Shown: positions 19,648 to 39,905, numbered from the stretch's first letter. The stretch: DNA of 64,000 nt from Alphaproteobacteria bacterium (GCA_965228345.1 CBDDHH010000003.1:181806-245805), one strand, 5' to 3'. Notes: a model not told the origin generated them from the sequence alone. Numbers and translations are program-made.

Positions 19648-19664
19648 GCATCGCCGTGTTTTTT

Positions 19665-23169: not shown

Positions 23170-23629
23170 GGTTGCGCCCGTCATGGACCAGGCGCCCACG
23201 GTCAAGCGCTTTGTCGAGCGGGGCCTTTGGGGCGGGGCGCGGCAGTTTGACGACTCTTATGCGGCGATTGGCTTTGCGGATGCGACGCGGGGCCTGATCG
23301 CGGGCTTCATTTATACGGACTGGCAGCCAGAGGCAGGGACGGTCGAACTATCGGCCTATGCGACCTATCGCGATTGGATGTCGCGGAAGGCCTTGGGGAT
23401 CTTGCTCTACGACTATCCCTTTGGGTCGCTTGGCTGTCGGCTGGTGGTGGCGCGGCACAGTGAGCGCAACGCGCCCGTGCGGCGCATATGGCGAGCCTTG
23501 GGGGCGCAGGAGACGCTGATCCCCGAGCTATGGGCCCCAGGCGAAGCAACGGCCATTGCGGTGCTGAAAACCGCCGACTTTGCGGGGACTAAATTCATGA
23601 AAGGACACAGCAAGCATGGGAAAAAGTAA
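23147..23629 (+). CDS. Hypothetical protein, weakly GNAT-acetyltransferase-like
   Basis: 160 aa. The ...RLVVARHSERNAPVRRIWRALGAQETLIPELW pattern resembles the GNAT C-terminal region. Low certainty. Confidence 0.35.
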   Translation: MGPCPMARVAPVMDQAPTVKRFVERGLWGGARQFDDSYAAIGFADATRGLIAGFIYTDWQPEAGTVELSAYATYRDWMSRKALGILLYDYPFGSLGCRLVVARHSERNAPVRRIWRALGAQETLIPELWAPGEATAIAVLKTADFAGTKFMKGHSKHGKK

Positions 23630-24617
23630 GCCTAAGGCCCCAAAGGCCCCCGACCCAATCCAAACGGCAGGGGCGCAGACGACGCAGAACATCGAGACGG
23701 CCAAAGCCCAGCAGATGATGAACAACATGAACCAGGTTAACCCCTACGGCAGCCTGACCTATAGCCAAACGGGGACGCAGACCGTGAAGGGCCCCGACGG
23801 GACGGTTCATGAGATCCCGACCTATACGGCGGAGCAGACTTTGAGCCCCGAGATGCAGGCCCTGTTTGACAAGAATGTCGCCTTGCAAGGGGGCATGGCG
23901 GACTTTGCGGGCCAGCATCTGGCCGATATGCAGGGCAGCGACATTTACGCCCAGGACTATTCGGCAGATCGGCAACGGGTCGAGGATGCGCTTATGGAGC
24001 GCATGAACCCAGGGCTTGATCGGCGGCGCGAAAACCTGGAATCACGCCTTGCCAGCCAAGGGATCCAGATCAGGTCGCAAGCCTATAACCAGGCCATGGA
24101 CGACCTGAACCGCGGCGAGAACGATGCCCGCCTTGGGGCGATTGCGAACGCCGGCCAAGAGCAAAGCCGCATGACGCGCGATGCCATGGCTAAACGCGGG
24201 CAGCAATTCAACGAGATGCAAGCCTTGAGCGGCGGGGCCCAGGTAAACCAGCCAAGCTATCAAATGGCCGCGCCCGCGCAGATCGCGAACACGGACGTGG
24301 CGGGGCTGACTATGAACGCGCATAACCAAAACATGAACGTCTATAACCAGCAGATGGCGCAGCAGAACCAGCTTATGGGCGGGCTGTTTGGCTTGGGCGC
24401 GGCGGGCATCGGCCTCATGTCGGATCGGCGCGTCAAGGAAGATATAAAGCAGGTCGGCAAGACCAACGACGGGCAGAACATCTATTCCTTCCGATACAAG
24501 GGCGGCGGCCCGATTCAGATGGGCCTCATGGCGCAGGAAGTTGAGAAGAAGAAACCCAAAGCGGTCGGGGAGGTCGGCGGCCTCAAGTTTGTCGATTATG
24601 GGGAGGCCTTGGCATGA
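23616..24617 (+). CDS. Tail fibre/spike-type protein with a C-terminal intramolecular chaperone (peptidase S74) domain
   Basis: C-terminus SDRRVKEDIKQVGKTNDGQNIYSFRYKGGGPIQMGLMAQEVEKKKPKAV..VDY is the S74 autoproteolytic chaperone signature. The N-terminal part is Q/N/M-rich. Confidence 0.7.
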   Translation: MGKSKPKAPKAPDPIQTAGAQTTQNIETAKAQQMMNNMNQVNPYGSLTYSQTGTQTVKGPDGTVHEIPTYTAEQTLSPEMQALFDKNVALQGGMADFAGQHLADMQGSDIYAQDYSADRQRVEDALMERMNPGLDRRRENLESRLASQGIQIRSQAYNQAMDDLNRGENDARLGAIANAGQEQSRMTRDAMAKRGQQFNEMQALSGGAQVNQPSYQMAAPAQIANTDVAGLTMNAHNQNMNVYNQQMAQQNQLMGGLFGLGAAGIGLMSDRRVKEDIKQVGKTNDGQNIYSFRYKGGGPIQMGLMAQEVEKKKPKAVGEVGGLKFVDYGEALA

Positions 24618-25030
24618 TGGGCACAAAATCCTTTGGCGGCGGCCAAGGCGGGGGCTACATCTTCGGCGGCAACACGGGCAAGTCTTACGAGGACGTGCAG
24701 CGGATGCGCCAACAGGCCAGCCAGATTTCACCGCTTCAAAACGGAATGCCGCGCAACGTCGGCGAAGGCATCGCCAGCATCGGGCAAGCACTGATGGTGC
24801 GCCACCTTGAGGGCAAGGCCAAGAAAGCCGAAGAAGCAGGGCGAAAGGAAGCTACAAACGCATTTCAGCACATCCTATCGCAGCCGAGGGGGCAATGGGA
24901 CATGGCCCAAGTCGGGGCCTTGTCCGACAACGGCTATTTGAGCGACGCGCAGCGCGGGGCCATGGCGACGTTGTTTCAGCAGGACCTGGAGCGGCGGCTT
25001 GGGGCTTATATCAGCGGCGATTTAAAATGA
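24614..25030 (+). CDS. Hypothetical phage protein; the last 7 codons and the stop are supplied by repeat copy R2
   Basis: 138 aa with an ATGA overlap. The C-terminal YISGDLK* is encoded by the A-type hairpin module (TATATCAGCGGCGATTTAAAATGA...). Confidence 0.4.
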   Translation: MMGTKSFGGGQGGGYIFGGNTGKSYEDVQRMRQQASQISPLQNGMPRNVGEGIASIGQALMVRHLEGKAKKAEEAGRKEATNAFQHILSQPRGQWDMAQVGALSDNGYLSDAQRGAMATLFQQDLERRLGAYISGDLK

Positions 25031-25348
25031 CTCTTTTATTCGCTGGTATAAGGGCCGCGACTGCGGCCCCCGTAGCGGGCTCCAAGCCCGAAGGGCGCAG
25101 GGAACGCCCGCGCCAAAAACACTTGGGCTCCAAGCCCGAAGGGCGCAGGGAACGCCCGCGCCAAAAACAAGCGGCCCCGAGAATAGCTAAGAAAGCGCCT
25201 CGGAGTATAAGCGAAGGCCCCGTCGCGCGGTCGGGCTGAGCGAGCGGTGCAAGCGAGGTGAGACCGCATCAAACAGCCGAAACGCGAAGCGTTTCTGCCG
25301 TGAGACAAAACTCTGCTGAAAATGTCAATTCTTAGCGGAGTTGGTATA
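25007..25348 (-). repeat. Mosaic intergenic repeat, copy R2 (long form, reverse) with an internal 48-bp tandem duplication
   Basis: Its reverse complement aligns module by module with R1, R7 and R11. GGGCTCCAAGCCCGAAGGGCGCAGGGAACGCCCGCGCCAAAAACA occurs twice, at 25077 and 25125. Confidence 0.9.
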
Positions 25349-25650: not shown

Positions 25651-27330
25651 ATGAAGAACATGCCTTTGTTCCCTCTTGCCCTTGCGGGCATTGCAGGGCT
25701 CATAGTAACGCTATGTGCGCTATTCCTCGTCCAAGTTGCAAGTCCTTGGCCCTATACCGACATGTGGGATGGAGGTCTCGGCTTCTTAATAAAGGTTACT
25801 GAAGACTTTACCTTTGGGGCCTTTTTCAAGCCTCACAACGAACATCGTATTGTCCTGGCACGTGTTCTGTTTTTCTTAGATGAAAGGTTATTTGGCGGCA
25901 CCAACACCTCGCTTTATGTTTGGCACTTCGCATTTGCTTGCGCCTTCTGCGTTCTTTTCGCAGCGGCGATTTGGCGCGAGATTTCAGGGTGGTCTCGGCT
26001 TATCTTGATGTCATTCACTATAAGTTTGGTTTTTTCTCTCTCTCAGTCCTATAACTTTGGACGGGCGTTTCAGAGCATGTTTTTTCTGGCCTACCTAGCG
26101 CCCTTTGCCACGTATGTGGCCTGGGCGCGTTTTCGCGTCACGACGCGCGCGGCTTGGGCGTTTGGGGCCTTGGCGCTGGGGATAATGAGTGCGCTGACCA
26201 TGGCCAACGGCGCGCTGGCGCTGCTCCCGCTCATTGTTTATGAGGGGCTTGCGCGCACCCGGCTAAGGTGGATCGGCATTCTCGTGGTGGTTCAGGCCCT
26301 GGTCTTGTTGCTCTATTTTTGGGATTACCATAGCCCTGGGCATCATCCGAGTTGGTCAAGCACCTTGTCCCAGCCTGTGGTTTTTCTTGAGTATATTCTG
26401 GTCTTCCTTGGGTCATGGGCTGGGGCCGAGGCGGCACCGATTGTTGGCGGAGTCATCGTTGGCGGCACAACTTTCTGGCTTTGGCGCCATATGCGTCGGC
26501 CAGAACCGGCGAAAATGAGCCAAGCCCTCTTGCTACTCCTTATGTTCGTGATCGTGACTGCCGCCGTCACAGCCCTGGGGCGGGCAGGTTTTGGTGTGGA
26601 GACAGCTCTAAAGAGCCGCTATACAACACCCTCGCTCTATGCCTTGTCAGCAGCTGTGGGCCTGGCTTATCTTCGCAGAACTTGGCGTCAGCGCTGGCTG
26701 CATATATTTATGGGCTTAGTTGGGGTTGCGGCCCTTGGCGAGCAGGCAACACGAGATTTTGTACCCCATCACAAAGAGTTCTTAAAACGCGCGGCGACCA
26801 TGTCAATTATTCAGGGAACGCCCGACGAGGAAGCCTTTTTGAAACATGCCTACCCTCATCACTTGCATGAGGCGCGAGTAGCCGATGCGTTACGACTCGG
26901 CATTGGCGTGTTTGGCACGCCGCCCTATAGTCAAATGCGTGATCTAGTGGGGAAGCAAATTCGCCCTTTAAGTGGCGAAAGACCTGACCAAGCTTGCGAA
27001 GGGGGTATTGCGGCAACTCTAGAGCTGAAGGACGGGGGGGTTCGGGTGACTGGTTGGATGAAAGATCCCGCTGTGCGCCATGGCTTTGCCACGCTAGTAG
27101 CAGGACAGGATGGGCGCATCTTGGGCTTTGGGCTCAGCAGTTCTTGGAAGTCTGCCCCTAGTGAACCGGCCTCACATCCCGAGCTAGAGAGATTTTGGGT
27201 CTATCTCAGTCCTTTGCGGCAAGCGGAACGCCCGATCACCTTGCAGTTTTGGGAGGAGGCGGCAAGTTGCGAGCTAACCTTATCAATCCCCGTTGAGATG
27301 AATTCCAAGCGGACTCATATCAGCGGTTAA
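25651..27330 (+). CDS. Polytopic inner-membrane protein, putative GT-C-type glycosyltransferase (candidate arabinofuranosyltransferase)
   Basis: About 560 aa with at least 10 hydrophobic segments and a ~170-aa soluble C-terminal domain. It sits at the head of the lipid-linked sugar donor cluster. The start is taken at ATG 25651 (MKNMPLFPLALAG...); the ORF is open from 25609. Confidence 0.5.
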   Translation: MKNMPLFPLALAGIAGLIVTLCALFLVQVASPWPYTDMWDGGLGFLIKVTEDFTFGAFFKPHNEHRIVLARVLFFLDERLFGGTNTSLYVWHFAFACAFCVLFAAAIWREISGWSRLILMSFTISLVFSLSQSYNFGRAFQSMFFLAYLAPFATYVAWARFRVTTRAAWAFGALALGIMSALTMANGALALLPLIVYEGLARTRLRWIGILVVVQALVLLLYFWDYHSPGHHPSWSSTLSQPVVFLEYILVFLGSWAGAEAAPIVGGVIVGGTTFWLWRHMRRPEPAKMSQALLLLLMFVIVTAAVTALGRAGFGVETALKSRYTTPSLYALSAAVGLAYLRRTWRQRWLHIFMGLVGVAALGEQATRDFVPHHKEFLKRAATMSIIQGTPDEEAFLKHAYPHHLHEARVADALRLGIGVFGTPPYSQMRDLVGKQIRPLSGERPDQACEGGIAATLELKDGGVRVTGWMKDPAVRHGFATLVAGQDGRILGFGLSSSWKSAPSEPASHPELERFWVYLSPLRQAERPITLQFWEEAASCELTLSIPVEMNSKRTHISG

Positions 27331-27336
27331 CACGAT

Positions 27337-27524
27337 TATGCCAGTTCACCTTAAAACAGACTCTTTATGAACTGGTATAGGGCCGCGACTGCGGCCCCCG
27401 CAGCGGCCCCGAGAACAGCTAAGAAAGCGCCTCGGGGTATAAGCGAAGGGGAGGCGAAACGCGCCGCGTTTCTGCCGTGAGACAAAACTCCGCTAAAAAT
27501 GTCAATTTTTAGCGGAGTTGGTAT
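27337..27524 (-). repeat. Mosaic intergenic repeat, copy R3 (short form, reverse)
   Basis: Contains the T-type hairpin, GGGCCGCGACTGCGGCCC, CCCCGAG...CTCGGGG, GAAACGCgccGCGTTTC, CTGCCGTGAGAC and the CTCCGCTAAAAA-TGTCAA-TTTTTAGCGGAG hairpin. It lacks two modules found in the long form. Confidence 0.9.
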
Positions 27525-27644
27525 GACTGGGCACTCCCTTATGCTGAGGTCCCCGATCCAATTCAAGGAAACAGAGTTTGTGAATTTCGGGGTCCTTGCC
27601 TAAAGTTCTTATCCTGAAGATTAGAAGTGTGTTATACCCCGTCC

Positions 27645-29081
27645 ATGGCGCGTCCTGTTCCTCTGGTTGTCGATTTGGATGGAACCTTGGTTCATGCGGA
27701 TCTAACGCTTGAACTTTGCCTGCTACACATTCGCCGCTGGAGCATCGTCGCCGTGCTACAACTGGCTTCATGGTTTTTGCGCGGGCGCGCGGCGGCGAAG
27801 GCCAAACTGGCTCAGCTTTATCGAGATCAAATGGTGGTTGCTGCCTTGCCCATCAGCACGTTGCAGGAGACCGACCTATATAAGCAGGCTACCCACCGGG
27901 CTTTGGTGTCTGGATCACCCCATTCCCTGGTAGTGCGAATTGCCGCGCAGATCGGCGGTTTCGACCTGGTCAGAGGCACCCAAGGTAGCGTAAATCTAAT
28001 TGGCGCACACAAGGCGGCCTTCCTCGTTGCTACGTATCCAGACGGTTTTGACTACGTGGGCGATAGCAAGCACGATATAGAAGTATGGCGCGCCGCGCGA
28101 AGGGCTTATGCCTTTAACGCCTCGAATGAAACACTCCGCAAGGCCGAGGCGCGCGGGATCAGGCCCGAGGTTCTGAGCCAACGCAAACCTTGGTTGCCCG
28201 CCGCGTTGAAGGCTATGCGCATGCACCAGTGGACAAAGAATAGTCTATTGTTGCTGATCCCCTTCCTGAATTTTACCTCGTTTGAAGTGGTCTGGCTGTG
28301 GTATGGTTTGGCGGGGTTTTTCGCCTTTTCTCTGGTTGCCAGTGCTACTTATCTACTCAATGATCTGCTGGATATTCAAGTTGATCGCCAGCACAAGATT
28401 AAGCGCAACCGTCCCTTCGCGAGGGGCGCACTGCCTATTCAACAAGGGCTTGCGTTCATGGGCGCGCTTGGCGCAGCTGGTTTGGCGCTCGCCATGGCCT
28501 TGGGCTGGGTCTATTTTAGCCTGGTCGTGATTTATACTCTCGCCTCGGCGATTTATTCCTTTGTTTTAAAGCAAGTGGTTCTTGTCGATGCCTTTACCCT
28601 CACCATCCTATACTGCTGGCGAGTGTTCGCGGGCGCTCTGTTGTTCGGGCTCACTACAAATGCTTGGTTTCTCATCTCTCTCGGATTTTTCTTCTTTGGC
28701 CTGGCGCTAGGTAAGCGTGCCGTTGAACTCCGGGCCAGGGGGGCTGACGGTGAGCAGATTCACGGCAGGGGTTACGAGGGAGAGGATGTGATGATCGTCT
28801 CCATTGCGGGCGTCACTTCAAGCTTTATGAGTGTTGGATTTGTGCTGATCTTCGCCTTGCTGGATCAATCCCTGTTGCTCCAGACCGCCGCCATATCCAT
28901 TGCTGTCGGCGCTTTTATCACCTTTTGGATTATGCGTTTTTGGCTCTTGGTCCATCGCGGGCAGGTGAATGATGACCCTGTCATATTCGCATTGAAGGAT
29001 CGAGTCAGTCTATCGACGTTTGCCCTGATCTTCGTGTTGGTACTTGGGGAGACGCTTGTTCTAAAGATCGGGGTGGCTTGA
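27645..29081 (+). CDS. HAD-like phosphatase fused to a UbiA-family polyprenyl-phosphate phosphoribosyltransferase (Rv3806c-like)
   Basis: The N-terminus VVDLDGTLV is HAD motif I. The C-terminal ~290 aa have multiple TM segments and NDLLDIQVDRQH (NDxxDxxxD). ATG 27645 is preferred over GTG 27627. Confidence 0.8.
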   Translation: MARPVPLVVDLDGTLVHADLTLELCLLHIRRWSIVAVLQLASWFLRGRAAAKAKLAQLYRDQMVVAALPISTLQETDLYKQATHRALVSGSPHSLVVRIAAQIGGFDLVRGTQGSVNLIGAHKAAFLVATYPDGFDYVGDSKHDIEVWRAARRAYAFNASNETLRKAEARGIRPEVLSQRKPWLPAALKAMRMHQWTKNSLLLLIPFLNFTSFEVVWLWYGLAGFFAFSLVASATYLLNDLLDIQVDRQHKIKRNRPFARGALPIQQGLAFMGALGAAGLALAMALGWVYFSLVVIYTLASAIYSFVLKQVVLVDAFTLTILYCWRVFAGALLFGLTTNAWFLISLGFFFFGLALGKRAVELRARGADGEQIHGRGYEGEDVMIVSIAGVTSSFMSVGFVLIFALLDQSLLLQTAAISIAVGAFITFWIMRFWLLVHRGQVNDDPVIFALKDRVSLSTFALIFVLVLGETLVLKIGVA

Positions 29082-30394
29082 TGCTTGCCTGGGGTCGTGT
29101 GCATCGTCTGCAGCATTGCCAGAAAGCCCCAGCTTTTAGGCACCAGACAGCTTTCAGTGAGGGTCTGATCAATACGCCCTATGGCCAGGGCCGATCCTAT
29201 GGAGATGTTGCCTTGAACGCAGGTGGGTGCCTTGTGCGGACCCACAAACTCAATCGCCTGTTGAGTTTTAACCGAAGCACAGGCCTGTTGCGTGCAGAGG
29301 CAGGAACAACTTTGGCGGACGTGCTAGAAGTTGCGGTGCCTGAAGGATGGTTTTTGCCAGTGACGCCAGGAACCAAGTTCGTGTCCCTCGGCGGGGCGGT
29401 TGCAAATGATGTGCATGGCAAGAACCACCATCGAGTCGGCAGCTTTGGCGCCCACGTGCGTGCACTGTCTCTTCGCCGCAGCGACGGCAGCGTGCAGGTG
29501 CTGCGTTTTGGGGACTCTCTATTCGCCCTTACGATCAGTGGGTTGGGCTTAACAGGACTTATCGAATGGGTCGAGGTCCAGCTGATCCCGATACGCTCCG
29601 TCAATATGTGGGTGGAGAACACGCGCTTCAGCTGTCTTGACGCATTTTTTGACCTTAGCAACGCCTCTAAGACTTGGCCCTATTGCGTTGCCTGGGTTGA
29701 CTGTTTTGCGCGGGGGGCGCGGCTGGGCCAGGGGGTTTTTACCAGAGCCCGCCACAGCCTCAAACCTGATTTAGCGGCAAGAGCGCGCGCGGTGATCGGT
29801 GCATACGGTGCTGGCAGACCTCGCCTCTCCTGGCCAGTCGAAACACCGAGCTGGCTGCTGAACCGCTATAGCATCGCCACCTTCAACGGGCTGTACCGGC
29901 GCAGGGCTGGGGCATCCTATGTAGGTTTGGTTGACTATGATCCCTATTTTTACCCGCTCGACAGCATCGCGAATTGGAACCGTCTCTATGGTCCGCGCGG
30001 ATTTTATCAACACCAGTGTCTGATTCCCAAGCCCGCGGCGCGAGAGGGGATCGCCGCCTTGCTCAAGACAATTTCCAGCCGATCTCAGGGCTCCTTCCTC
30101 ACGGTATTGAAAAACCACGGCGTTGAGACGTCGCCGGGGCTGAATTCATTTTGCTTTGAGGGCACGAGTTTAGCTATGGATTTTGCAAACAAAGGCGCTG
30201 CCACGCTGAATCTCTTAGGCGAACTGGAGGCCATTGTACGCAGCTTTGGCGGACGAATTTACGCGGCAAAAGACAGCACCATGACGAGCGCAACCTATAG
30301 GGCTATGTACCCAAACTGGACCCTGCTTGAGGCCGCCCGTGATCCCCAACTTAACTCTGCATTTTGGATGCGCGTAACTGGAGATGCCCCATGA
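29081..30394 (+). CDS. FAD-dependent decaprenylphosphoryl-ribose 2'-oxidase-like protein (DprE1-like)
   Basis: AWGR, GQGRSYGD and PGTKFVSLGGAVANDVHGKNHHRVGSFGAHV align closely with my recollection of M. tuberculosis DprE1 (GWGR, [37 protein letters not shown]). TGATG overlap with the UbiA gene. Confidence 0.8.
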   Translation: MLAWGRVHRLQHCQKAPAFRHQTAFSEGLINTPYGQGRSYGDVALNAGGCLVRTHKLNRLLSFNRSTGLLRAEAGTTLADVLEVAVPEGWFLPVTPGTKFVSLGGAVANDVHGKNHHRVGSFGAHVRALSLRRSDGSVQVLRFGDSLFALTISGLGLTGLIEWVEVQLIPIRSVNMWVENTRFSCLDAFFDLSNASKTWPYCVAWVDCFARGARLGQGVFTRARHSLKPDLAARARAVIGAYGAGRPRLSWPVETPSWLLNRYSIATFNGLYRRRAGASYVGLVDYDPYFYPLDSIANWNRLYGPRGFYQHQCLIPKPAAREGIAALLKTISSRSQGSFLTVLKNHGVETSPGLNSFCFEGTSLAMDFANKGAATLNLLGELEAIVRSFGGRIYAAKDSTMTSATYRAMYPNWTLLEAARDPQLNSAFWMRVTGDAP

Positions 30395-31134
30395 ATCTGC
30401 CCTATACAATTTTGATTCTGGGAGGGTCTTCGGCGATTGCCGCGACCTATGCCCGCCGCCGCGTCGCACGCCTGATCGCGGAGGGCGAGAAGGTGCGTCT
30501 TATCCTGGCAGGTCGCAGCGTGGAAAAACTGGAAGCCACGGCGGACGATCTGCGCGCCCGCGGCGCTGAGGTTCAGGTTGCAACGCGGGATCTAAACCAG
30601 TTCGATGCCGCGCTGCTGCACGGGCCAATAGATGAGGCTGTCTTTGCCTACAGTACCCTCACCGACCAAGCTACCGCCCAGGCGAGCGCCACGTACCTCG
30701 CCGCGCAAATGACCCTAAACCTGACCTCAATCATCGTATGGCTGGAGGGGGTTGCGAAGGTATTTGAAGACCAGGGCCATGGGCGTGCGCTTGTCATCGG
30801 CTCGGTCGCGGGCGATCGAGGCCGCATGTCAAACTATGCCTACGGCGCGGCCAAAGCGGGCCTGGCGACGTTCGTGGCAGGCATGGCCCATCGCTTTTCC
30901 AAACAGCGCCATATTGTCTTTACTCTGCTAAAACCCGGTCTTGTTGACACGCCAATGACGGCGCATATCGAGCCGAAAGGCGCCCTCTGGGCAGGGTCTG
31001 AACGGGTAGCAGCGTGTGCCGAGCGGGCCCTACTTGCCGGACGCAACGTGGCCTATACACCCTCATTTTGGCGGATGATTATGCTGGCCATCAAGCTTAC
31101 TCCCACCTTCATTTTTCACCGAACCAAGCTTTAG
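30391..31134 (+). CDS. Short-chain dehydrogenase, DprE2-like (2'-keto reductase)
   Basis: ILILGGSSAIA Rossmann motif and YGAAK catalytic motif; 247 aa; ATGA overlap with the DprE1-like gene. Confidence 0.7.
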   Translation: MNLPYTILILGGSSAIAATYARRRVARLIAEGEKVRLILAGRSVEKLEATADDLRARGAEVQVATRDLNQFDAALLHGPIDEAVFAYSTLTDQATAQASATYLAAQMTLNLTSIIVWLEGVAKVFEDQGHGRALVIGSVAGDRGRMSNYAYGAAKAGLATFVAGMAHRFSKQRHIVFTLLKPGLVDTPMTAHIEPKGALWAGSERVAACAERALLAGRNVAYTPSFWRMIMLAIKLTPTFIFHRTKL

Positions 31135-31166
31135 CCCACAAGGCTGGAACCTAGGCAAAGCGTTCA

Positions 31167-32102
31167 ATGACCAAGTGCATTCTCATAACTGGTGCCGCGG
31201 GCCTCGTTGGCCAAAATCTCGTAGCGCGCCTGAAGACTCGTCGCGACCTTCGGCTCGTGTGCGTAGATAAGCATCCTGCCAATTGCGAGATTTTCCGCAT
31301 CCTGCATGAAGAGGTGCAGCTCATCGAAGCAGACTTGCGCGATCCCGACACCTGGGCCCATGCCTTGGAGGGGGTCGATATGATCATCATGAACCATGCC
31401 CAAATCGGGGCCTTGGAGGAAGGCCCCTTTATCGCCAATAATGTTGAGGCCACCCAAAGGGTGATCGACCAAGCCAAGGCACACAAGGTGGACCGGATGA
31501 TCCACATCTCTTCCTCTGTTGTGCGCTCCATGGCCGATGATTTTTATACCCGCAGCAAACGACAGCAGGAGGAGATTGTATTGCAAAGCGGGATCCAGGC
31601 TGTGGTACTGCGGCCCACACTCATGTTCGGGTGGTATGACCGCAAGCACCTGGGTTGGCTATCACGGTTCATGCAGCGGAGCCCGGTCTTTCCCTTACCC
31701 AACTTTGGCCGCTATATTCGCCAACCCCTCTACGCGGGCGATTTTTGCGCGGTGATCGAGGCGTGCATTGATCGCCCCACCTTTGGTCAGATTTACGATA
31801 TTTCAGGCCAGGAACGGGTCAGCTACGGAGATTTGATTCGCGCGCTGAAGAAGGCGTCCGGCGCGCGTTCTTTAATTTTGCCAATTCCCTATCACTTGTT
31901 TTGGGCCTTATTGAAGCTCTATGGTCTGATTTTCAGGGATCCCCCCTTTACTACCAGTCAGCTGGCAGCACTTGTCGTGCCGGAGGAGTTTCCCGTGATC
32001 GACTGGCCCAGCATATTTGGTGTCCGCGCAACTCCCTTGACGCAAGCATTGGAGGAAACCTTCGCCCATCCCACCAACGCATCGGTTGTGTTGGAGTTTT
32101 AG
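31167..32102 (+). CDS. NAD-dependent epimerase/dehydratase family protein
   Basis: ILITGAAGLVGQNLV Rossmann motif and the YxxxK-type YTRSK; 311 aa. Confidence 0.75.
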   Translation: MTKCILITGAAGLVGQNLVARLKTRRDLRLVCVDKHPANCEIFRILHEEVQLIEADLRDPDTWAHALEGVDMIIMNHAQIGALEEGPFIANNVEATQRVIDQAKAHKVDRMIHISSSVVRSMADDFYTRSKRQQEEIVLQSGIQAVVLRPTLMFGWYDRKHLGWLSRFMQRSPVFPLPNFGRYIRQPLYAGDFCAVIEACIDRPTFGQIYDISGQERVSYGDLIRALKKASGARSLILPIPYHLFWALLKLYGLIFRDPPFTTSQLAALVVPEEFPVIDWPSIFGVRATPLTQALEETFAHPTNASVVLEF

Positions 32103-32103
32103 A

Positions 32104-33387
32104 ATGAGGAGAATCGCAATTGTGGGCGCGGGTGCAATGGGACTGGCTGCTGCCTATGAAGCTTGTAAACAGGGGTATCAGGTTCAGGTTTTTGAGGCGG
32201 GCGATAAGATCGGCGGCATGGCTGCGCATTTTGATTTTGGTGGCCTGAGTTTGGAGCGATACTACCATTTCATCTGCAAGTCGGACACGCCCACGTTTGA
32301 ATTGCTTGATGAGCTGGGCATCGCAGATACCCTGCGGTGGGTCGATACCAAGATGGGCTATTATATCAACGGCACAACCTATCCATGGGGTGATCCCATT
32401 TCGTTGCTGAAGTTTCCTTTGCTCAACATGTGGCAAAAGTTTCGCTACGGTCTCACAGCTCTGAGGCTGACGCGTAAGGCGGACTTCCGATATCTAGAGG
32501 ATGTATCTGCAACTGATTGGATAAGGCAGGATTTTGGTGAGAAAACCTACGCCCTGCTGTGGAAACGCCTGCTAGAGTTGAAGTTCTTTGAGTATACCGA
32601 CACCATTTCAGCTGCGTGGATCGCCACGCGGATCAAACGCATTGGCAAGTCGCGAAAGTCCCTCATGCAAGAACAACTGGGCTATCTTCATGGAGGTTCT
32701 GAAACGCTCATTTCTGCCTTAGCGGCGGCAATTGAGGCGAAGGGTGGCCAGATCCATATTGCCAGACCCGTGAAGCGGATCAACATCAGGCAGGGGCGGG
32801 TCACGGGCGTGAAATTGTCCGATGGCACGGATCGGACCTTCGATGCTCTTATCTCCACCGTCCCCACCCCCTTAGTCGCAGCTATGGTGCCAGATTTGAG
32901 CGCAGCAGAGAAGGCCGCCTACGGCGGTATTGCGAATATTGGTGTTGTGTGTGTTGCGGTAAAGCTGGCGAGGTCGATCACTCCCAACTTCTGGCTCAAT
33001 ATCAACGACCCGCGCATTGATGTGCCCGGCATCATCGAGTTTTCAAACCTGCGGCCCATGGATCATCCTGTAGTCTATGTGCCTTACTACATGCCCGTCA
33101 GCCACCCAAAGTTCTCACAATGTGATGCGGCCTTTGAGGAGGAAATTACCGCCTACTTACGCATACTTCAGCCCCTGCTAACGGTTGAAGATGTTCTGGA
33201 CATGCAGATTAGCCGTCTGCGCTATAGTCAACCGGTGTGCGAGCCTGGATTTGCTAAGAAAATCCCTCCGATAAAACCGGCAATCTCGGGGCTACAAATC
33301 GCAGATACGTGCTACTATTACCCCGAGGACCGAGGTCTGGCTGAGAGCATCCGCCTAGGCCGCCGAATGGCCCAGACTATAGTATAG
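32104..33387 (+). CDS. FAD/NAD(P)-dependent oxidoreductase (CrtI/HemY amine-oxidase-like)
   Basis: MRRIAIVGAGAMGLAAAYEACKQGYQVQVFEAGDKIGGM dinucleotide-binding motif. The start is at ATG 32104, 2 nt after the upstream stop. Confidence 0.7.
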   Translation: MRRIAIVGAGAMGLAAAYEACKQGYQVQVFEAGDKIGGMAAHFDFGGLSLERYYHFICKSDTPTFELLDELGIADTLRWVDTKMGYYINGTTYPWGDPISLLKFPLLNMWQKFRYGLTALRLTRKADFRYLEDVSATDWIRQDFGEKTYALLWKRLLELKFFEYTDTISAAWIATRIKRIGKSRKSLMQEQLGYLHGGSETLISALAAAIEAKGGQIHIARPVKRINIRQGRVTGVKLSDGTDRTFDALISTVPTPLVAAMVPDLSAAEKAAYGGIANIGVVCVAVKLARSITPNFWLNINDPRIDVPGIIEFSNLRPMDHPVVYVPYYMPVSHPKFSQCDAAFEEEITAYLRILQPLLTVEDVLDMQISRLRYSQPVCEPGFAKKIPPIKPAISGLQIADTCYYYPEDRGLAESIRLGRRMAQTIV

Positions 33388-33408
33388 TTTTTGTAAGAAA
33401 GGCAAAGA

Positions 33409-34101
33409 GTGACATTTATATCATCCCTAGTTGAGAGGGTTTATAATTTAGTTGATGGCCTTCATACACGTCGATTGAAGGCCTACTATCATAAGACGAA
33501 ATTTGATGCAGTTTTAGATGTAGGTTCGCACAAAGGTGAGTTTATCACAAGGGTCATTGGCCCAAATGTAGATATTTTTGCATTTGAGCCGCAAGAGGGT
33601 TTGATGCCAATTTTGAAGGATAAGACTCAAGAGATGCAAGTCGTGAAATACTACGCGTGTGCCGTATCTAATTCACACCTCCCGCTTACACTTTATATCA
33701 ATAGTTTATCTTCCACATCTTCGACTAAACCCCCAAATTCATATAGCGCATGGAGTGCGATTAAGACGGCTTTGCTAGGGGGTAAATTGGTTACGGAAAC
33801 CAAAGAAGTTCCGTGCATGACACTTGATTCTTTGATGGAAACCGAGCTGTCTCGCTATGGGGATATCTTGTTAAAAATTGATGTTGAGGGCGCAGAGTTT
33901 GAAGTTATTGAAGGAGCAAAGAAATTACTGTCGTCGGGAAAAATAAAGGCGGTGCAGTTTGAGCAGGCGCGGTACAACCTCTATCACGATTCCGCGAAGG
34001 ACCGAGTTTGCGGCGCTCTTTCCAGCCTAGGTTTCGTCAAAGACAAGTCTTTTCTTTTTCCGTTGTTGAATTTTTCAGATCTTGTTTATGTTCGAGGTTA
34101 A
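33409..34101 (+). CDS. FkbM-family methyltransferase
   Basis: LDVGSHKGEF and LKIDVEGAEFEVIEGA motifs. GTG start. Visibly AT-richer than the surrounding sequence. Confidence 0.75.
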   Translation: MTFISSLVERVYNLVDGLHTRRLKAYYHKTKFDAVLDVGSHKGEFITRVIGPNVDIFAFEPQEGLMPILKDKTQEMQVVKYYACAVSNSHLPLTLYINSLSSTSSTKPPNSYSAWSAIKTALLGGKLVTETKEVPCMTLDSLMETELSRYGDILLKIDVEGAEFEVIEGAKKLLSSGKIKAVQFEQARYNLYHDSAKDRVCGALSSLGFVKDKSFLFPLLNFSDLVYVRG

Positions 34102-34104
34102 GCC

Positions 34105-34503
34105 TTATCGAAAGGTGAAATATCGATGGCCGAAGAAACTCACCAAAGTACCAAGCCCCACCGCCATTGTGTGGGATGCTGTGTCTAAATATTCTGACTG
34201 GTTCATGAAACCAGTCAAGAAAGGCCTTAGCGCATAGCTCGCATATAGAATGATCGGTAGGGAAACCAAATTGACGATGACAAACTTGACAAACTCGCTA
34301 AAGGAGGCGCCGCCCATATCATTAAATGCCGTTGCTCTGTTTAAGGTGTAGCCAGAGGCGAGCCCAACACAGTACGCTAAGAAAATAGAAAATCCGTAGG
34401 GCATAAACATCCCAAATAGGATTCGAGATACAATATTGGCGGTTGCAGCAAGACCACCAGCTACTAGAAAGAGAAGAAGCCTTTTCATGTTCATGATCCC
34501 CAT
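34105..34503 (-). CDS. GtrA-family membrane protein (Rv3789-like; lipid-linked sugar translocation or anchoring)
   Basis: 132 aa with 4 TM segments. The C-terminus GHRYFTFR is typical of GtrA-like proteins. Confidence 0.8.
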   Translation of the reverse strand: MGIMNMKRLLLFLVAGGLAATANIVSRILFGMFMPYGFSIFLAYCVGLASGYTLNRATAFNDMGGASFSEFVKFVIVNLVSLPIILYASYALRPFLTGFMNQSEYLDTASHTMAVGLGTLVSFFGHRYFTFR

Positions 34504-34562: not shown

Positions 34563-34758
34563 CCTTATACCAAGGGTTATAATACCGACGGTCATAAAAA
34601 GTGACCTTTTCATGACCGTTTCGTGTCTCACGGCAGAAACGCGTTGCGTTTCGCCTCCGACGGGACGTTCGTTCGTACCCCGAGGCGCTTTCTTTGCCGA
34701 TCTCGGGGCCGCTTGTTTTTGGCGCGGGCGTTCCCTGCGCCCTTCGGGCTTGGAGCCT
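34563..34758 (+). repeat. Mosaic intergenic repeat, copy R4 (forward, right end truncated)
   Basis: Starts CCTTATACCAAGGGTTATAATACCGACGGTCATAAAAAGTGACC..., continues through GTCTCACGGCAGAAACGC and ends in ...CTTCGGGCTTGGAGCC. It lacks the GGGCCGCAGTCGCGGCCC and terminal hairpin modules. Confidence 0.85.
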
Positions 34759-35335: not shown

Positions 35336-35411
35336 GAGGCCGTCCTTTATTTTTTAGAATAGGGCTATGCGCGGGAGCCGCCACCAAAGGCAACCCCTAG
35401 GGCGGATTCCA

Positions 35412-35457
35412 GGTCGATTGGAGCAATCGACGCGGGGAACATCCGCGCCAACAAACG
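35412..35457 (+). repeat. G-element copy G3 (first half, forward), abutting R5
   Basis: GGTCGATTGGAGCAATCGACGCGGGGAACATCCGCGCCAACAAAC is nearly identical to G1. Confidence 0.75.
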
Positions 35458-35480
35458 AGGTAATATAGCGAAAGCGCTTT

Positions 35481-35714
35481 AATACCAACTCCGATAAAAA
35501 TTGACCTTTTTATTGGAGTTTTGTCTCACGGCAGAAACGCTTCGCGTTTCGGCTTTTGGGGTTGCGGTCTCACCTCGCTTGCTCAGCCTGACCGCTGGAC
35601 GGGGCCTCCGCTTATACCCCGAGGCGTGTGTCCGCTGTTCTCGGGGCCGCTGCGGGGGCCGCAGTCGCGACCCTATACCAGTTCATAAGGAATTTTTTTA
35701 AGGAGAACTGGTAT
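35481..35714 (+). repeat. Mosaic intergenic repeat, copy R5 (forward)
   Basis: AATACCAACTCCGATAAAAATTGACC...GTCTCACGGCAGAAACGCTTCGCGTTTCG...GCGGTCTCACCTCGC...CCCCGAGG...CTCGGGGCCGC...GGGGGCCGCAGTCGCGACCC, then the T-type hairpin at 35675-35714. Confidence 0.9.
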
Positions 35715-35796
35715 GACTTCCCACAAAGATCGCGACCGCACGGTTGGTTCCAAAACCTGCTGTTGCATCATGGCAACAGTCCTGTAAGGGTTCGCC

Positions 35797-36384
35797 ATGG
35801 GTAGCCTATCTTCCCACGCGTCGGATCTCACTGATCTCAGCCAGTTTCCCGCCTTGGTCCTGAACGCCGATTTTCGTCCCTTGTCGTACCTGCCGCTGTC
35901 GATCTGGTCGTGGCAGGAAGCACTGAAAGCTAAGTACCAAGACCGGGTTCATATCGTTGCCGAGTACGACCGCACGGTGCGTTCGCCCTCGCAAACCATT
36001 CCATTGCCGTCGGTGATTTCGCTCAAGGCCTATGTGCCCATGAACCGCACCCCAGCCTTTACGCGGTTCAACGTTTTTTTGCGCGACCACTTTCGTTGCC
36101 AGTATTGCCGGACCAAAGGTCAAGCCGCCGACCTAACCTTTGACCATGTCGTGCCTAAGGCCAAGGGGGGTAGGACTAGCTGGGACAACATCGTGACCGC
36201 GTGCCAGAGGTGCAATTTGAAAAAGGGCGCCAAGTTGCTCGGGCACTCGGGCCTGCATCTACAGCGCGCGCCAGAGCGGCCGTCGTACCATCAGTTGCAA
36301 GACTATGGACGCCGCTTTCCCCCGAACTTTCTGCACCAAAGCTGGGCCGACTACCTCTACTGGGATGGGGAGTTAGAGGACTAA
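35797..36384 (+). CDS. HNH endonuclease
   Basis: CQYC...FDHVVPKAKGGRTSWDNIVTACQRCNLKKG is the HNH/zinc-finger signature. 195 aa. The final GAC TAA lies in sequence shared with the repeat. Confidence 0.85.
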   Translation: MGSLSSHASDLTDLSQFPALVLNADFRPLSYLPLSIWSWQEALKAKYQDRVHIVAEYDRTVRSPSQTIPLPSVISLKAYVPMNRTPAFTRFNVFLRDHFRCQYCRTKGQAADLTFDHVVPKAKGGRTSWDNIVTACQRCNLKKGAKLLGHSGLHLQRAPERPSYHQLQDYGRRFPPNFLHQSWADYLYWDGELED

Positions 36385-36424
36385 TACCAGTTCATAAAGA
36401 GTCTGTTTTAAGGAGAACTGGTAC
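36384..36424 (+). repeat. Solo T-type hairpin module (R5b) exactly filling the gap between the convergent HNH and lpxL-like genes
   Basis: ATACCAGTTCATAAAGAGTCTGTTTTAAGGAGAACTGGTAC has a 10-bp stem. The 44-nt string GGACTAATACCAG...GAACTGG is identical to 55208-55251. Confidence 0.85.
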
Positions 36425-39557: not shown

Positions 39558-39567
39558 AGCGAACTCC

Positions 39568-39615: not shown

Positions 39616-39618
39616 ACT

Positions 39619-39857: not shown

Positions 39858-39905
39858 AAGTGGTTCAACCTTGACCTTGAGATCTCGCGGCGGCAAGGAC
39901 GATCC

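What the first reader, a model, noticed from the sequence alone, without database searches (positions are those of the whole stretch)
25651..34503. Mycobacterial-type lipid-linked D-arabinofuranose donor pathway in a Gram-negative-looking genome
The cluster combines the following genes.
- A UbiA-family phosphoribosyltransferase (Rv3806c-like, NDxxDxxxD).
- A DprE1-like FAD oxidase with very close motif identity (GRSYGD, DVHGKNHH).
- A DprE2-like SDR.
- A GtrA-like protein (Rv3789-like).
- A large polytopic membrane protein that could be the GT-C transferase using the lipid donor.
Together these are the enzymes that make decaprenyl-phospho-arabinose in Corynebacterineae. Outside actinobacteria the pathway is known only sporadically, for example in Pseudomonas aeruginosa group IV pilin arabinosylation and Azorhizobium noeCHOP Nod-factor arabinosylation. 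The extra epimerase, CrtI-like oxidoreductase and FkbM methyltransferase suggest further tailoring, possibly a methylated or modified pentofuranose. The acceptor (LPS, pilin, capsule or S-layer) is unknown. The cluster lies directly next to the phage-derived block and is interrupted by repeats, consistent with an accessory island.
Basis: partly seen in the sequence, partly recalled or inferred. Interest (0 to 1): 0.7.

Follow-up and report, generated by a model that had tools for sequence, protein, structure and literature searches.

The report
Lipid-linked pentofuranose surface-glycan modification cassette
This horizontally acquired eight-gene island most likely makes a lipid-linked arabinose-type sugar inside the cell, flips it across the inner membrane and attaches it to a surface polysaccharide; the system type was described in 2024 and is widespread, but this extended version carries two conserved redox enzymes whose role is unknown.

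Summary
Window 25651-34503 holds eight intact genes:
- a GT-C-fold membrane glycosyltransferase
- a HAD-phosphatase/UbiA fusion (Rv3806c-like)
- a DprE1-like flavoenzyme
- a DprE2-like SDR
- an NDUFA9-like SDR
- an amine-oxidase-family flavoprotein
- an FkbM methyltransferase
- GtrA

The arabinofuranose-donor reading holds at the homology level. The rarity claim does not. This is an Araf-type 'three-component' periplasmic pentofuranosylation system (Kelly et al., PNAS 2024, PMC11127046).

Of 81 loci encoding relatives of the GT-C, 50 carry all six core genes (GT-C, HAD-UbiA, DprE1, DprE2, SDR, flavoprotein) within 10 kb. 37 of those share one gene order. HAD-UbiA fusions occur on 93 plasmids.

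The 'extra' SDR and flavoprotein are therefore core members and are the best-conserved proteins of the set. They also occur with the GT-C alone in an actinobacterium. Their role is unknown, and the published work only flags such 'elaborate' systems.

FkbM was found only in this locus. The neighbouring phage block is a truncated remnant, and the repeats are genome-wide intergenic elements. The acceptor is unknown, most probably O-antigen or a similar polysaccharide.

Verdict: ordinary in kind, with an uncharacterised conserved sub-module. Interest is moderate.

The parts
25651..27330 (+). GT-C-fold glycosyltransferase (559 aa): about 11 TM helices plus a C-terminal periplasmic beta-sandwich (residues ~445-545). 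It is the predicted transferase that uses the lipid-linked pentose.
   Evidence: No Pfam, NCBIfam or PDB sequence hit. 2981 homologues in the exhaustive search. AF2 with alignment A1 gives pLDDT 91.4. Foldseek top hits are ArnT 5f15/5ezm (prob 1.0), STT3 and EmbA/B/C. D37, N63, H65 and R66 are invariant in the first loop and R323/Y324 are conserved. C449/C540 are nearly invariant, consistent with a periplasmic disulfide.
27341..27519 (.). Intergenic mosaic repeat element between the GT-C gene and the operon. It is a copy of a genome-wide family.
   Evidence: Families D3, D8, D9, D12 and D14, with copies at 25042-25342, 52229-52385 and 56814-56999 among others. No Rfam match.
27627..29081 (+). 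Bifunctional HAD phosphatase (PRP) / UbiA-family polyprenyl-phosphate 5-phosphoribosyltransferase. It would make polyprenyl-P-ribofuranose from PRPP.
   Evidence: Pfam UbiA 1.6e-19 plus HAD 2e-05. NCBIfam NF006088 scores 419.5 bits against a cutoff of 351. PDB Rv3806c 8j8j 2.5e-21. Motifs DLDGT (D16, D18) and N245-D246-x2-D249-x3-D253 are present. Same architecture as C. youngae ORF15 (PMC11127046).
29078..30394 (+). DprE1-like FAD-dependent polyprenyl-P-ribose 2'-oxidase.
   Evidence: PDB DprE1 entries about 1e-66 over residues 34-413. NCBIfam DprE1 model scores 313.6 bits, below the equivalog cutoff of 500. GRSYGD, DVHGKNHH and the Lys equivalent to Mtb K418 are conserved. Cys387 is replaced by Ala366.
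30364..31134 (+). DprE2-like SDR, predicted 2'-keto reductase. The likely start is the ATG at 30391, overlapping the DprE1 stop.
   Evidence: Best PDB hit is DprE2 21gq_C at 1.1e-19, against 8e-10 for the next. NCBIfam NF005489 202 bits and DprE2 model 139.7 bits, both below cutoff. YxxxK motif present.
31167..32102 (+). Extended SDR ('epimerase/dehydratase' family, NDUFA9-like). Conserved core member of unknown step.
   Evidence: Pfam Epimerase 1.5e-20. Best PDB hits are complex I NDUFA9 subunits at 1.8e-12. TGAAGLVG and Y127xxxK131 are present. Present in 56 of 81 related loci at a median 53% identity, the most conserved protein of the cassette.
32104..33387 (+). FAD-dependent oxidoreductase of the amine oxidase / protoporphyrinogen oxidase / phytoene desaturase superfamily (NCBIfam PRK07233 family). 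Conserved core member of unknown step.
   Evidence: Pfam Amino_oxidase 4.7e-28. NF005560 scores 517.8 bits against a cutoff of 252. Profile search against PDB: 3ka7, phytoene desaturase 5mog, PPO and MAO come first, with UGM 1i8t only at 2.6e-6. Present in 56 of 81 loci at a median 49% identity. More than 5000 homologues, all with generic names only.
33409..34101 (+). FkbM-family SAM methyltransferase. Locus-specific accessory with the lowest GC3 in the island (0.42).
   Evidence: Pfam Methyltransf_21 1.2e-17. TIGR01444 scores 70.5 bits, above cutoff. No homologue within 10 kb in any of 81 related loci. Xanthomonadaceae cassettes carry an unrelated Methyltransf_11 enzyme instead.
34105..34503 (-). 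GtrA-family small membrane protein. Predicted flippase for the polyprenyl-P-sugar.
   Evidence: Pfam GtrA_DPMS_TM 1.9e-12. GtrA follows the flavoprotein gene in annotated relatives. tblastn detected it in 30 of 81 loci.
24614..25342 (.). Left junction: a truncated phage internal-virion-protein gene (24614-25030) running into a mosaic repeat (about 25005-25342).
   Evidence: PHROG hits cover only the first ~85 positions of 403- and 747-position profiles. Synteny with Sulfitobacter phage phiGT1 stops after the gp17 homologue. The injection-protein, tail-fibre, tailspike and lysis genes are absent. The repeat family D16/D9 begins at 24998-25042.

Best explanation
The island encodes a self-contained periplasmic glycan-modification system of the 'three-component' pentofuranose type.

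Proposed steps:
1. [quoted passage not shown]
2. The DprE1-like flavoenzyme and the DprE2-like SDR invert C2, giving polyprenyl-P-D-arabinofuranose.
3. The conserved flavoprotein/SDR pair (32104-33387 and 31167-32102), and possibly the FkbM methyltransferase, act on this lipid-linked sugar or its carrier. This step is undefined.
4. GtrA flips the donor to the periplasm.
5. The GT-C enzyme (25651-27330) transfers the pentose onto a surface glycan after polymerisation. Its C-terminal beta-sandwich probably binds that glycan, most likely an O-antigen or similar polysaccharide made elsewhere in the genome.

Shown here: protein folds and families, catalytic motifs, and conserved synteny.
Inferred: every chemical step, the lipid carrier, the final sugar and the acceptor.
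For: Homology and motifs:
- Each enzyme matches the characterised mycobacterial proteins, with catalytic motifs intact.
- The HAD-UbiA fusion has the same architecture as C. youngae ORF15, which was shown biochemically to make polyprenyl-P-Ribf (PMC11127046).

GT-C assignment:
- Confident AF2 model, pLDDT 91.4.
- Foldseek top hits are ArnT, STT3 and EmbA/B/C.
- The architecture (about 11 TM helices, a helical first periplasmic loop with an invariant Asp, a C-terminal beta domain) mirrors GT136 ORF12.

Conserved context:
- 50 loci carry all six core genes. 37 have the order HADUbiA-DprE1-DprE2-GTC-SDR-flavoprotein(-GtrA).
- Relatives sit in polysaccharide loci: wzm/wzt plus a giant GT in a Hyphomicrobiales MAG; wzm/wzt within 10 kb in 6 of 54 loci, including Stenotrophomonas; the Xanthomonas LPS cassette; a GT-rich plasmid region in Rhodobacteraceae SC52; pseudaminic acid genes in R. 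tumorigenes.
- A minimal HADUbiA-GTC pair with no epimerases (L044) shows that this GT-C family pairs with lipid-linked pentofuranose synthases in general.
Against: - There is no biochemical or compositional evidence for this organism.
- DprE1-like and DprE2-like score below NCBIfam equivalog cutoffs, so the exact regiochemistry is assumed.
- The two extra redox enzymes are always present, so the final donor may not be plain Araf.
- No acceptor-synthesis genes (wzm/wzt, wzx/wzy, pilin) lie in the window.
- The GT-C gene is separated from the operon by a repeat element, and GtrA is on the opposite strand. Co-expression is therefore unproven. The promoter and terminator scans were at chance level.
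- Membership of CAZy GT136 could not be tested.
Confidence: 0.8

Rival explanations
1. Same system, but the transferred sugar is not D-arabinofuranose. The flavoprotein and the NDUFA9-like SDR would form a second two-component oxidase/reductase, analogous to DprE1/DprE2 but not homologous to them. It would convert polyprenyl-P-Araf into another pentose: for example D-lyxofuranose by C3 inversion, or an L-xylo sugar by C5 oxidation and C4 inversion. FkbM might then O-methylate it.
For: - The pair is present in 56 of 81 loci and is the most conserved part of the cassette, at a median 53% and 49% identity against 30-44% for the rest.
- In every untruncated DprE1/E2-bearing locus of the 81 found through the GT-C, the pair is also present.
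- In Smaragdicoccus (a relative of mycobacteria with its own DPA supply) the trio GTC-SDR-flavoprotein forms an operon on its own.
- Simple Araf cassettes without the pair exist (Cereibacter, R. leguminosarum). Their putative GT-Cs show no relation to this GT-C family.
- The flavoprotein profile resembles oxidases and desaturases rather than mutases. Both proteins keep their cofactor and catalytic motifs and lack signal peptides.
- Methyltransferases of two unrelated families have been recruited to such cassettes.
- Non-stoichiometric terminal beta-L-Xylp branches exist in O-antigens such as that of Ralstonia solanacearum (PMC10450222).
Against: - No enzyme of either family has been characterised on a lipid-linked sugar.
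- Lyxofuranose has never been reported in a glycan (PMC11127046).
- Known L-xylose residues are pyranosides, which this route does not obviously yield.
- The pair might instead act on the isoprenoid carrier, since its nearest relatives (HpnE, phytoene desaturase, PPO, NDUFA9) handle lipids.
- The same GT-C family also pairs with a HAD-UbiA alone (L044), so it is not donor-specific.
Confidence: 0.3
2. Prophage-borne seroconversion module: the cassette is cargo of the adjacent phage and serves superinfection exclusion, like gtrABC of Shigella and Salmonella phages.
For: - The cassette starts about 600 bp after the last phage-derived ORF.
- A phage-type HNH endonuclease lies at 35797-36384.
- Composition is foreign.
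- One phage genome with a three-component system has been reported (PMC11127046).
Against: - The phage block is truncated after the gp17 homologue. It lacks injection, tail-fibre, tailspike and lysis genes, and no integrase was found among the ORFs scanned.
- No GT-C relative in 2.9 million IMG/VR contigs.
- No DprE1 homologue, and only one weak UbiA hit, in 50,697 phage records.
- Relatives of the cassette lie in chromosomal LPS loci and on large plasmids.
- The junction is formed by a genome-wide repeat element.
Confidence: 0.07
3. The GT-C modifies lipid A or the LPS core rather than a polysaccharide, in the manner of ArnT.
For: - ArnT is the closest solved structure.
- A lipid A biosynthesis acyltransferase gene lies 1.9 kb to the right, at 36424-37446.
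Against: - The structural match is weak (TM 0.37, E 0.01), and GT136 also resembles ArnT most closely.
- The C-terminal beta-sandwich matches the carbohydrate-binding module arrangement of ORF12 and Emb proteins.
- Relatives neighbour O-antigen or polysaccharide genes.
- The acyltransferase has host-like composition and lies outside the island.
Confidence: 0.08

Closest known systems
Three-component extracytoplasmic pentofuranosylation system of Citrobacter youngae O1/O2 (ORF15 PRP-PPPRS, ORF14 flippase, ORF12 GT-C = CAZy GT136, ORF13 epimerase); Kelly et al., PNAS 2024, PMC11127046
   Same: - HAD(PRP)-UbiA fusion with the same catalytic motifs.
- A small flippase and a GT-C with about 11 TM helices plus a C-terminal beta-rich domain.
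- Auxiliary epimerases that set the identity of the pentose.
- The paper states that Araf systems carry DprE1/E2 homologues and that some systems use SMR/GtrA-type transporters.
   Different: - GtrA here instead of a MATE-type flippase.
- DprE1/E2 here instead of, or in addition to, an ORF13-type SDR.
- Two further conserved redox enzymes and an FkbM methyltransferase.
- The GT-C has no EpsG or other Pfam hit, and its relation to GT136 is untested.
- The cassette here is not embedded in an O-antigen locus.
Mycobacterial decaprenyl-phospho-arabinose pathway (Rv3806c, Rv3807c, DprE1 Rv3790, DprE2 Rv3791, Rv3789, Emb/Aft GT-C enzymes)
   Same: Homologous PRPP-dependent UbiA transferase, DprE1-like and DprE2-like enzymes, a GtrA-family protein and a GT-C-fold transferase.
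   Different: - A fused HAD phosphatase replaces the PAP2-type Rv3807c.
- Cys387 is Ala.
- The carrier is presumably undecaprenyl rather than decaprenyl.
- The GT-C is unrelated in sequence to Emb/Aft.
- The product is probably a side-chain decoration, not an arabinan polymer.
Pseudomonas aeruginosa Pa5196/PA7 pilin arabinosylation (PsPA7_6245-6251 plus TfpW/TfpX); bioRxiv 10.1101/2020.04.19.049825
   Same: A Gram-negative D-Araf donor pathway with Rv3806c-, DprE1-, DprE2- and GtrA-like proteins and a GT-C transferase. DprE1 is cytoplasmic.
   Different: - TfpW has a C-terminal TPR domain and lies next to pilA. Here the C-terminal domain is a beta-sandwich and no pilin gene is nearby.
- The Pseudomonas phosphatase is a separate Rv3807c-like protein.
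'More elaborate' uncharacterised systems noted in Xanthomonas (PMC11127046) and the BXO8-type LPS cassette of Xanthomonas (bioRxiv 10.1101/2022.03.02.482478)
   Same: Same extended gene set. Xanthomonas axonopodis locus L065 has HADUbiA, DprE1, DprE2, SDR, flavoprotein, GtrA and a GT-C of the same family, plus a methyltransferase.
   Different: - Xanthomonas uses a Methyltransf_11 enzyme and an extra 654-aa protein.
- Its cassette lies in the etfA-metB LPS locus beside wzm/wzt.
- Gene order differs.
- No function has been assigned in either paper.
GtrA/GtrB/GtrC phage-encoded O-antigen glucosylation (Shigella, Salmonella)
   Same: The same logic: a lipid-linked monosaccharide is made in the cytoplasm, flipped by GtrA, and transferred by a polytopic GT to a finished O-antigen.
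   Different: - No GtrB (GT2) here; the donor comes from PRPP, not UDP-glucose.
- The cassette is not on a functional prophage.

Membership tests
Three-component pentofuranosylation system (Kelly et al. 2024) | Polyprenyl-phosphate phosphoribosyltransferase of the UbiA family, usually fused to a HAD-type phosphoribose phosphatase, with the NDxxDxxxD motif and the HAD nucleophile Asp | tested here: met
   Pfam UbiA plus HAD. NF006088 above cutoff. Rv3806c 8j8j 2.5e-21. D16/D18 and N245/D246/D249/D253 present.
Three-component pentofuranosylation system (Kelly et al. 2024) | Adjacent small flippase (MATE-type or SMR/GtrA-type) | tested here: met
   GtrA_DPMS_TM 1.9e-12 at 34105-34503. GtrA is conserved in related cassettes.
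Three-component pentofuranosylation system (Kelly et al. 2024) | Adjacent GT-C-fold glycosyltransferase with a periplasmic first loop carrying a catalytic Asp | tested here: met
   AF2 pLDDT 91.4. Foldseek top hits are ArnT, STT3 and Emb. D37 is invariant after TM1. A gene of this family lies within or beside the donor genes in 50 loci.
Three-component pentofuranosylation system (Kelly et al. 2024) | DprE1/DprE2 homologues present when the pentose is Araf | tested here: met
   The K418 equivalent is conserved.
Three-component pentofuranosylation system (Kelly et al. 2024) | Demonstrated transfer of a pentofuranose side chain to a glycan | not testable with these tools
   Needs glycan composition analysis, NMR and mutants.
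CAZy GT136 (C. youngae ORF12) | Sequence homology to ORF12, including D31, E34, H106 and R349/Y350 | tested here: inconclusive
   No GT136 sequence or model was available: BK026208, CP032687 and CP099034 are absent from the collections. Architecture matches, and an Asp after TM1 plus an adjacent R323-Y324 pair are conserved. However, the EpsG-type hit reported for ORF12 is not seen here.
Mycobacterial DPA pathway | DprE1 equivalog (NCBIfam NF053785, cutoff 500 bits) with the covalent-inhibitor Cys387 | tested here: not met
   313.6 bits, below cutoff. Cys387 aligns to Ala366. It is a homologue with conserved catalytic residues, not an equivalog.
Mycobacterial DPA pathway | Emb/Aft-family arabinofuranosyltransferase | tested here: not met
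   No sequence match to any PDB chain, including Emb and Aft, with either the single sequence or the profile. No Pfam hit. Only fold-level similarity.
Mycobacterial DPA pathway | Separate PAP2-type phosphatase (Rv3807c) | tested here: not met
   No such gene in the cluster. A fused HAD domain is present instead.
TfpW-type pilin arabinosylation | GT-C with a C-terminal TPR domain, encoded next to the pilin gene | tested here: not met
   The C-terminal domain is all-beta. No pilin gene was seen among the neighbouring ORFs scanned.
Prophage gtr-type seroconversion cassette | Carried by an intact temperate phage, next to attachment site and integrase, with a GtrB GT2 synthase | tested here: not met
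   The phage block is truncated. No GtrB is present. No viral relatives were found.

The most novel reading that the evidence does not exclude
The flavoprotein (PRK07233 family) and the NDUFA9-like SDR may be a previously unrecognised two-component enzyme acting on polyprenyl-phosphate-linked arabinofuranose. They travel with this GT-C family across Proteobacteria, and with the GT-C alone in a mycolate actinobacterium. They could form a second oxidase/reductase epimerase, functionally parallel to DprE1/DprE2 but built from unrelated folds. The extended cassette would then install a pentose whose biosynthesis is unknown, such as D-lyxofuranose or an L-xylo-configured sugar, possibly O-methylated by the recruited methyltransferases.
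Probability: 0.3. Interest if true: 0.75.

Novelty: new variant of a known kind. Interest (0 to 1): 0.45.

Why it matters
Side-chain sugars on O-antigens and capsules determine serotype, phage adsorption and immune or plant recognition.

The basic pentofuranose system is now established. This locus belongs to a widespread extended form: at least 50 loci here, including Stenotrophomonas, Xanthomonas, Acidovorax, Paraburkholderia and marine alphaproteobacteria. Two of its most conserved enzymes and its GT-C family have no assigned function and no curated family with a function.

Working out what the flavoprotein/SDR pair does would either add a new lipid-linked sugar interconversion to bacterial glycobiology or show how the carrier lipid is tailored. 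It would also allow the side-chain sugar to be predicted from genome sequence for many plant-associated and environmental bacteria.

For this particular genome, the finding mainly says that its surface glycan is probably decorated with an arabinose-derived pentose acquired by horizontal transfer.

Tried and rejected
- **Source genome.** Exact-protein look-ups for window proteins returned nothing. The genome is not among the GTDB representatives; the best GT-C hit is 35% identical. The organism is therefore inferred only to be a probably marine alphaproteobacterium.
- **GT136 comparators.** The accessions named in the paper's supplement (BK026208, CP032687, CP099034) are not in the available collections, so GT136 membership stays open.
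- **Single-sequence AF2 of the GT-C.** Useless, pLDDT 42.8. The alignment-based run was needed.
- **Sequence and profile searches of the GT-C family** against PDB and Pfam gave nothing.
- **Phage cargo hypothesis.** Rejected after the phiGT1 synteny comparison and the empty viral searches. IMG/VR relatives of the tail-tube gene were too distant to define prophage ends.
- **UGM-like mutase idea for the flavoprotein (Araf -> Arap -> L-Xylp).** Considered, but a profile search ranks UGM far below desaturases and oxidases, so I keep it only as a minor variant.
- **Strict one-to-one link between this GT-C family and the extra redox pair.** Weakened by L044 (HADUbiA-GTC only), by B. stagnalis (only the C-terminal domain is related) and by Hyphomicrobiales locus L094 (the 520-aa protein upstream of the cassette shows no BLASTP match to the window GT-C).
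- **Promoter and terminator scans** and **Rfam** were uninformative.
- **The 62-nt repeat pair 8136-8197 / 35394-35455.** Considered as possible att sites and rejected: the copies are 85% identical and a third partial copy lies at 39558.
- **Literature searches** for L-xylose or arabinofuranose O-antigen genetics in Stenotrophomonas and Xanthomonas found nothing usable.

Full report
**Observation**

The stretch 25651-34503 contains eight uninterrupted ORFs.

- The UbiA-family protein (27627-29081) has the NDLLDIQVD motif. Its best solved relative is M. tuberculosis Rv3806c (8j8j, 2.5e-21).
- The FAD_binding_4 protein (29078-30394) contains GRSYGD and DVHGKNHH. It aligns over about 380 residues with DprE1 crystal structures at about 1e-66. 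The Lys equivalent to K418 is conserved, and Ala366 stands in place of the benzothiazinone-reactive Cys387.
- The SDR (30364-31134) has DprE2 as its best PDB hit, ten orders of magnitude ahead of generic ketoreductases.
- 34105-34503 (minus strand) is a GtrA-family protein.
- 31167-32102, 32086-33387 and 33409-34101 are an NAD-epimerase-family SDR, an amine-oxidase-family flavoprotein and an FkbM methyltransferase.

The whole fusion matches NCBIfam NF006088 above its cutoff.

**The membrane protein is a GT-C glycosyltransferase**

The 559-aa product of 25651-27330 has no Pfam, NCBIfam or PDB sequence match, either alone or as a profile. The word-indexed search found only one distant relative. 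An exhaustive HMMER search found 2981 homologues, 307 of them below 1e-30.

Evidence from a 71-sequence alignment (A1):
- AlphaFold2 gives a confident model: pLDDT 91.4, pTM 0.91.
- The model has about eleven transmembrane helices, a partly helical first external loop and a C-terminal beta-sandwich.
- Its best structural matches are all GT-C enzymes: ArnT (probability 1.0), STT3 subunits of oligosaccharyltransferase, and EmbA/B/C. TM-scores are low, about 0.37.
- The family has invariant D37, N63, H65 and R66 in the first loop (motifs WDMWDG and HNEHR), and conserved R323-Y324.
- Two nearly invariant cysteines lie in the C-terminal domain, consistent with a periplasmic disulfide.

This architecture matches the published description of C. 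youngae ORF12, the founder of CAZy family GT136. I could not obtain a GT136 sequence, so family membership is open.

**What is already known**

Kelly et al. (PNAS 2024, PMC11127046) showed experimentally that C. youngae adds alpha-ribofuranose or xylofuranose side chains to its O-antigen using three components:
- a HAD-UbiA fusion that makes polyprenyl-P-ribofuranose from PRPP;
- a small flippase;
- a GT-C with a C-terminal carbohydrate-binding module.

An SDR epimerase determines the pentose. The authors report that such systems are widespread, that Araf-containing glycans go with DprE1/E2 homologues, and that some systems use SMR/GtrA-type transporters. One system is phage-encoded. [quoted passage not shown]

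The window's cluster fits this scheme as an Araf-type system with a GtrA flippase.

**Comparative genomics**

Scanning one genome per species with the GT-C alignment gave 417 confirmed relatives, of which the best 80 loci were kept. I added a Rhodobacteraceae plasmid locus and searched the window's proteins against these 81 loci.

| Protein | Loci with a homologue within 10 kb (of 81) | Median identity to window |
|---|---|---|
| NDUFA9-like SDR | 56 | 53% |
| Flavoprotein | 56 | 49% |
| DprE1-like | 54 | 44% |
| HAD-UbiA | 54 | 37% |
| DprE2-like | 54 | 37% |
| GtrA | 30 | 29% |
| GT-C | 81 (the query family) | 30% |

- Fifty loci have all six core genes. Thirty-seven of these share the order HADUbiA-DprE1-DprE2-GTC-SDR-flavoprotein(-GtrA).
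- Hosts include Pseudohongiella, Massilia, Duganella, Acidovorax, Stenotrophomonas, Xanthomonas axonopodis, Pseudomonas nitroreducens, Paraburkholderia, Vibrio hannami and Methylovulum.
- The two blocks [HADUbiA-DprE1-DprE2] and [GTC-SDR-flavoprotein-GtrA] move independently (L007, L009, L041).
- In Smaragdicoccus niigatensis, a member of the Corynebacteriales, GTC-SDR-flavoprotein form an overlapping operon among unrelated genes. I assume this organism has its own DPA pathway. If so, the pair acts downstream of the ribose/arabinose donor.
- FkbM has no counterpart in any related locus. Xanthomonadaceae and Methylovulum cassettes carry an unrelated Methyltransf_11 enzyme.

The closest relatives of the window's cassette:
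- A TARA Oceans scaffold with a 71% identical flavoprotein and the order HADUbiA-DprE1-DprE2-SDR-flavoprotein-GtrA-GTC. Its GT-C fragment matches A1 at hhalign probability 99.9%.
- A Hyphomicrobiales MAG in which the cassette adjoins wzm, wzt, a methyltransferase and a giant multi-domain GT, which is an ABC-transporter-type O-antigen locus.

**Simple versus extended cassettes**

HAD-UbiA fusions occur on 93 plasmids, mostly of Rhizobium and other alphaproteobacteria. Only seven of those plasmids carry a flavoprotein at 52% identity or more.

- The Cereibacter sphaeroides and R. leguminosarum plasmids have a simpler set: UbiA-GtrA-DprE1-DprE2 plus large hypothetical proteins. Those hypothetical proteins show no profile similarity to the A1 family.
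- The 707-aa protein following GtrA in the extended cassette of R. tumorigenes is an A1 member at 99.9% probability.
- The link between the A1 family and the extended donor block is strong but not exclusive. B. stagnalis has a protein that shares only the C-terminal domain. One genome (L044) pairs HAD-UbiA directly with an A1 GT-C and has no epimerases.

**The two unexplained enzymes**

- The SDR keeps TGxxGxxG and YxxxK. Its best solved relatives are the NDUFA9 subunit of complex I, followed by sugar-nucleotide epimerases and dehydratases.
- The flavoprotein matches NCBIfam NF005560 ('hypothetical protein') far above cutoff. It has more than 5000 homologues, all with generic names only.
- As a profile, the flavoprotein is closest to an uncharacterised archaeal oxidoreductase, phytoene desaturase, protoporphyrinogen oxidase and monoamine oxidases. 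UDP-galactopyranose mutase is a much weaker match.
- Neither protein has a signal peptide, so both should act at the cytoplasmic face before flipping.

The most economical hypothesis is a second oxidase/reductase pair acting on the lipid-linked pentose, by analogy with DprE1/DprE2. Action on the isoprenoid carrier is an alternative. Nothing here decides between them.

**Surroundings**

To the left lies a phage-derived block: terminase, SU10-type portal and capsid, scaffold and tail-tube proteins, and a Peptidase_S74-tailed protein. It is related at about 40-59% amino-acid identity to 40-kb podoviruses of Sulfitobacter and Rhizobium.

- Gene-by-gene comparison with Sulfitobacter phage phiGT1 shows synteny from terminase to gp17.
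- The window then has only a 138-aa N-terminal fragment (24614-25030) where phiGT1 has two injection proteins, a tail fibre, a tailspike and lysis genes.
- The end of that fragment runs into a repeat element.
- The phage block is therefore a remnant. No relatives of the cassette were found in IMG/VR or INPHARED, so the cassette is unlikely to be phage cargo.

The repeats that 'interrupt' the cluster belong to a family of hairpin-rich mosaic elements. These occupy at least a dozen intergenic sites across the window, including between core host genes.

G+C, and especially GC3, are lower in the cluster than in the flanking genes. This supports horizontal acquisition. FkbM (GC3 0.42) was probably added separately.

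To the right, host genes resume: a lipid A acyltransferase, a response regulator, and fabD, fabG and fabF. This confirms a Gram-negative host. No acceptor-synthesis genes lie in the window.

**Mechanism and confidence**

I put about 0.8 on the general mechanism:
1. Cytoplasmic synthesis of a polyprenyl-P-pentofuranose from PRPP.
2. C2 epimerisation.
3. GtrA-mediated flipping.
4. GT-C transfer to a surface glycan.

Within that, I put about 0.3 on the final sugar being something other than plain D-Araf because of the extra redox pair. The acceptor is most likely an O-antigen or related polysaccharide, judged from the context of relatives and the C-terminal beta domain. This is inference only.

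**Novelty and score**

The kind of system is known and this locus is one of many. The extended cassette, its unannotated GT-C family and the conserved flavoprotein/SDR pair are uncharacterised and were only mentioned in passing in the literature.

I rate it a new variant of a known kind. It is of moderate interest to glycobiologists and low surprise value otherwise.

Noticed in passing
window 7472-7809, 8136-8197, 25005-25342, 27341-27519, 34580-34757, 35394-35726, 36356-36435, 39558-39867, 45828-46084, 52191-52385, 55186-55496, 56814-56999, 61104-61392, 62695-62951: A family of mosaic intergenic repeats built from several small hairpin modules, reminiscent of BIME/RIME-type elements. It fills many intergenic gaps in both the phage remnant and core host regions. 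There is no Rfam match. One copy forms the 3' end of a truncated phage gene, so these elements may mediate rearrangements.
   Followed up: partly
window 18547-19647 (+): A 366-aa RelA/SpoT-domain protein sits inside the phage structural module between the capsid and tail genes. It matches the PADLOC candidate single-gene defence family PDC-S33 over its full length (2.9e-91). It may be a toxSAS-type anti-phage gene carried by the prophage remnant.
   Followed up: partly
window 8703-25030: The phage block is a remnant. It is syntenic with Sulfitobacter phage phiGT1 from terminase to the S74-chaperone protein, but lacks injection, tail-fibre, tailspike and lysis genes. No integrase was found among the ORFs scanned in the window.
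   Followed up: yes
window 6311-7465 (-): A 384-aa PP-loop ATPase-family protein (PF01171; phrog_27769, 2.9e-97) is flanked on its right by mosaic repeats, in a region of small ORFs without any family match.
   Followed up: no
window 35797-36384 (+): A stand-alone HNH_5 endonuclease (phrog_16726, 4.5e-39; weak PtuB-like PADLOC hits) lies between the island and the host lipid A acyltransferase gene, bracketed by repeat elements. It could be a relic of the phage or of another mobile element.
   Followed up: no
L020 10004-13916 (Smaragdicoccus niigatensis): A mycolate actinobacterium carries the trio GT-C, NDUFA9-like SDR and flavoprotein as an overlapping operon, without adjacent UbiA/DprE genes. 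This hints at an uncharacterised arabinan-related modification in Corynebacteriales.
   Followed up: partly
L065 4528-5232 and 7498-9462 (Xanthomonas axonopodis); L033, L052 (Stenotrophomonas): Xanthomonadaceae versions of the cassette contain a Methyltransf_11 methyltransferase and a conserved 654-aa protein with no Pfam hit, between the flavoprotein and GtrA genes.
   Followed up: partly
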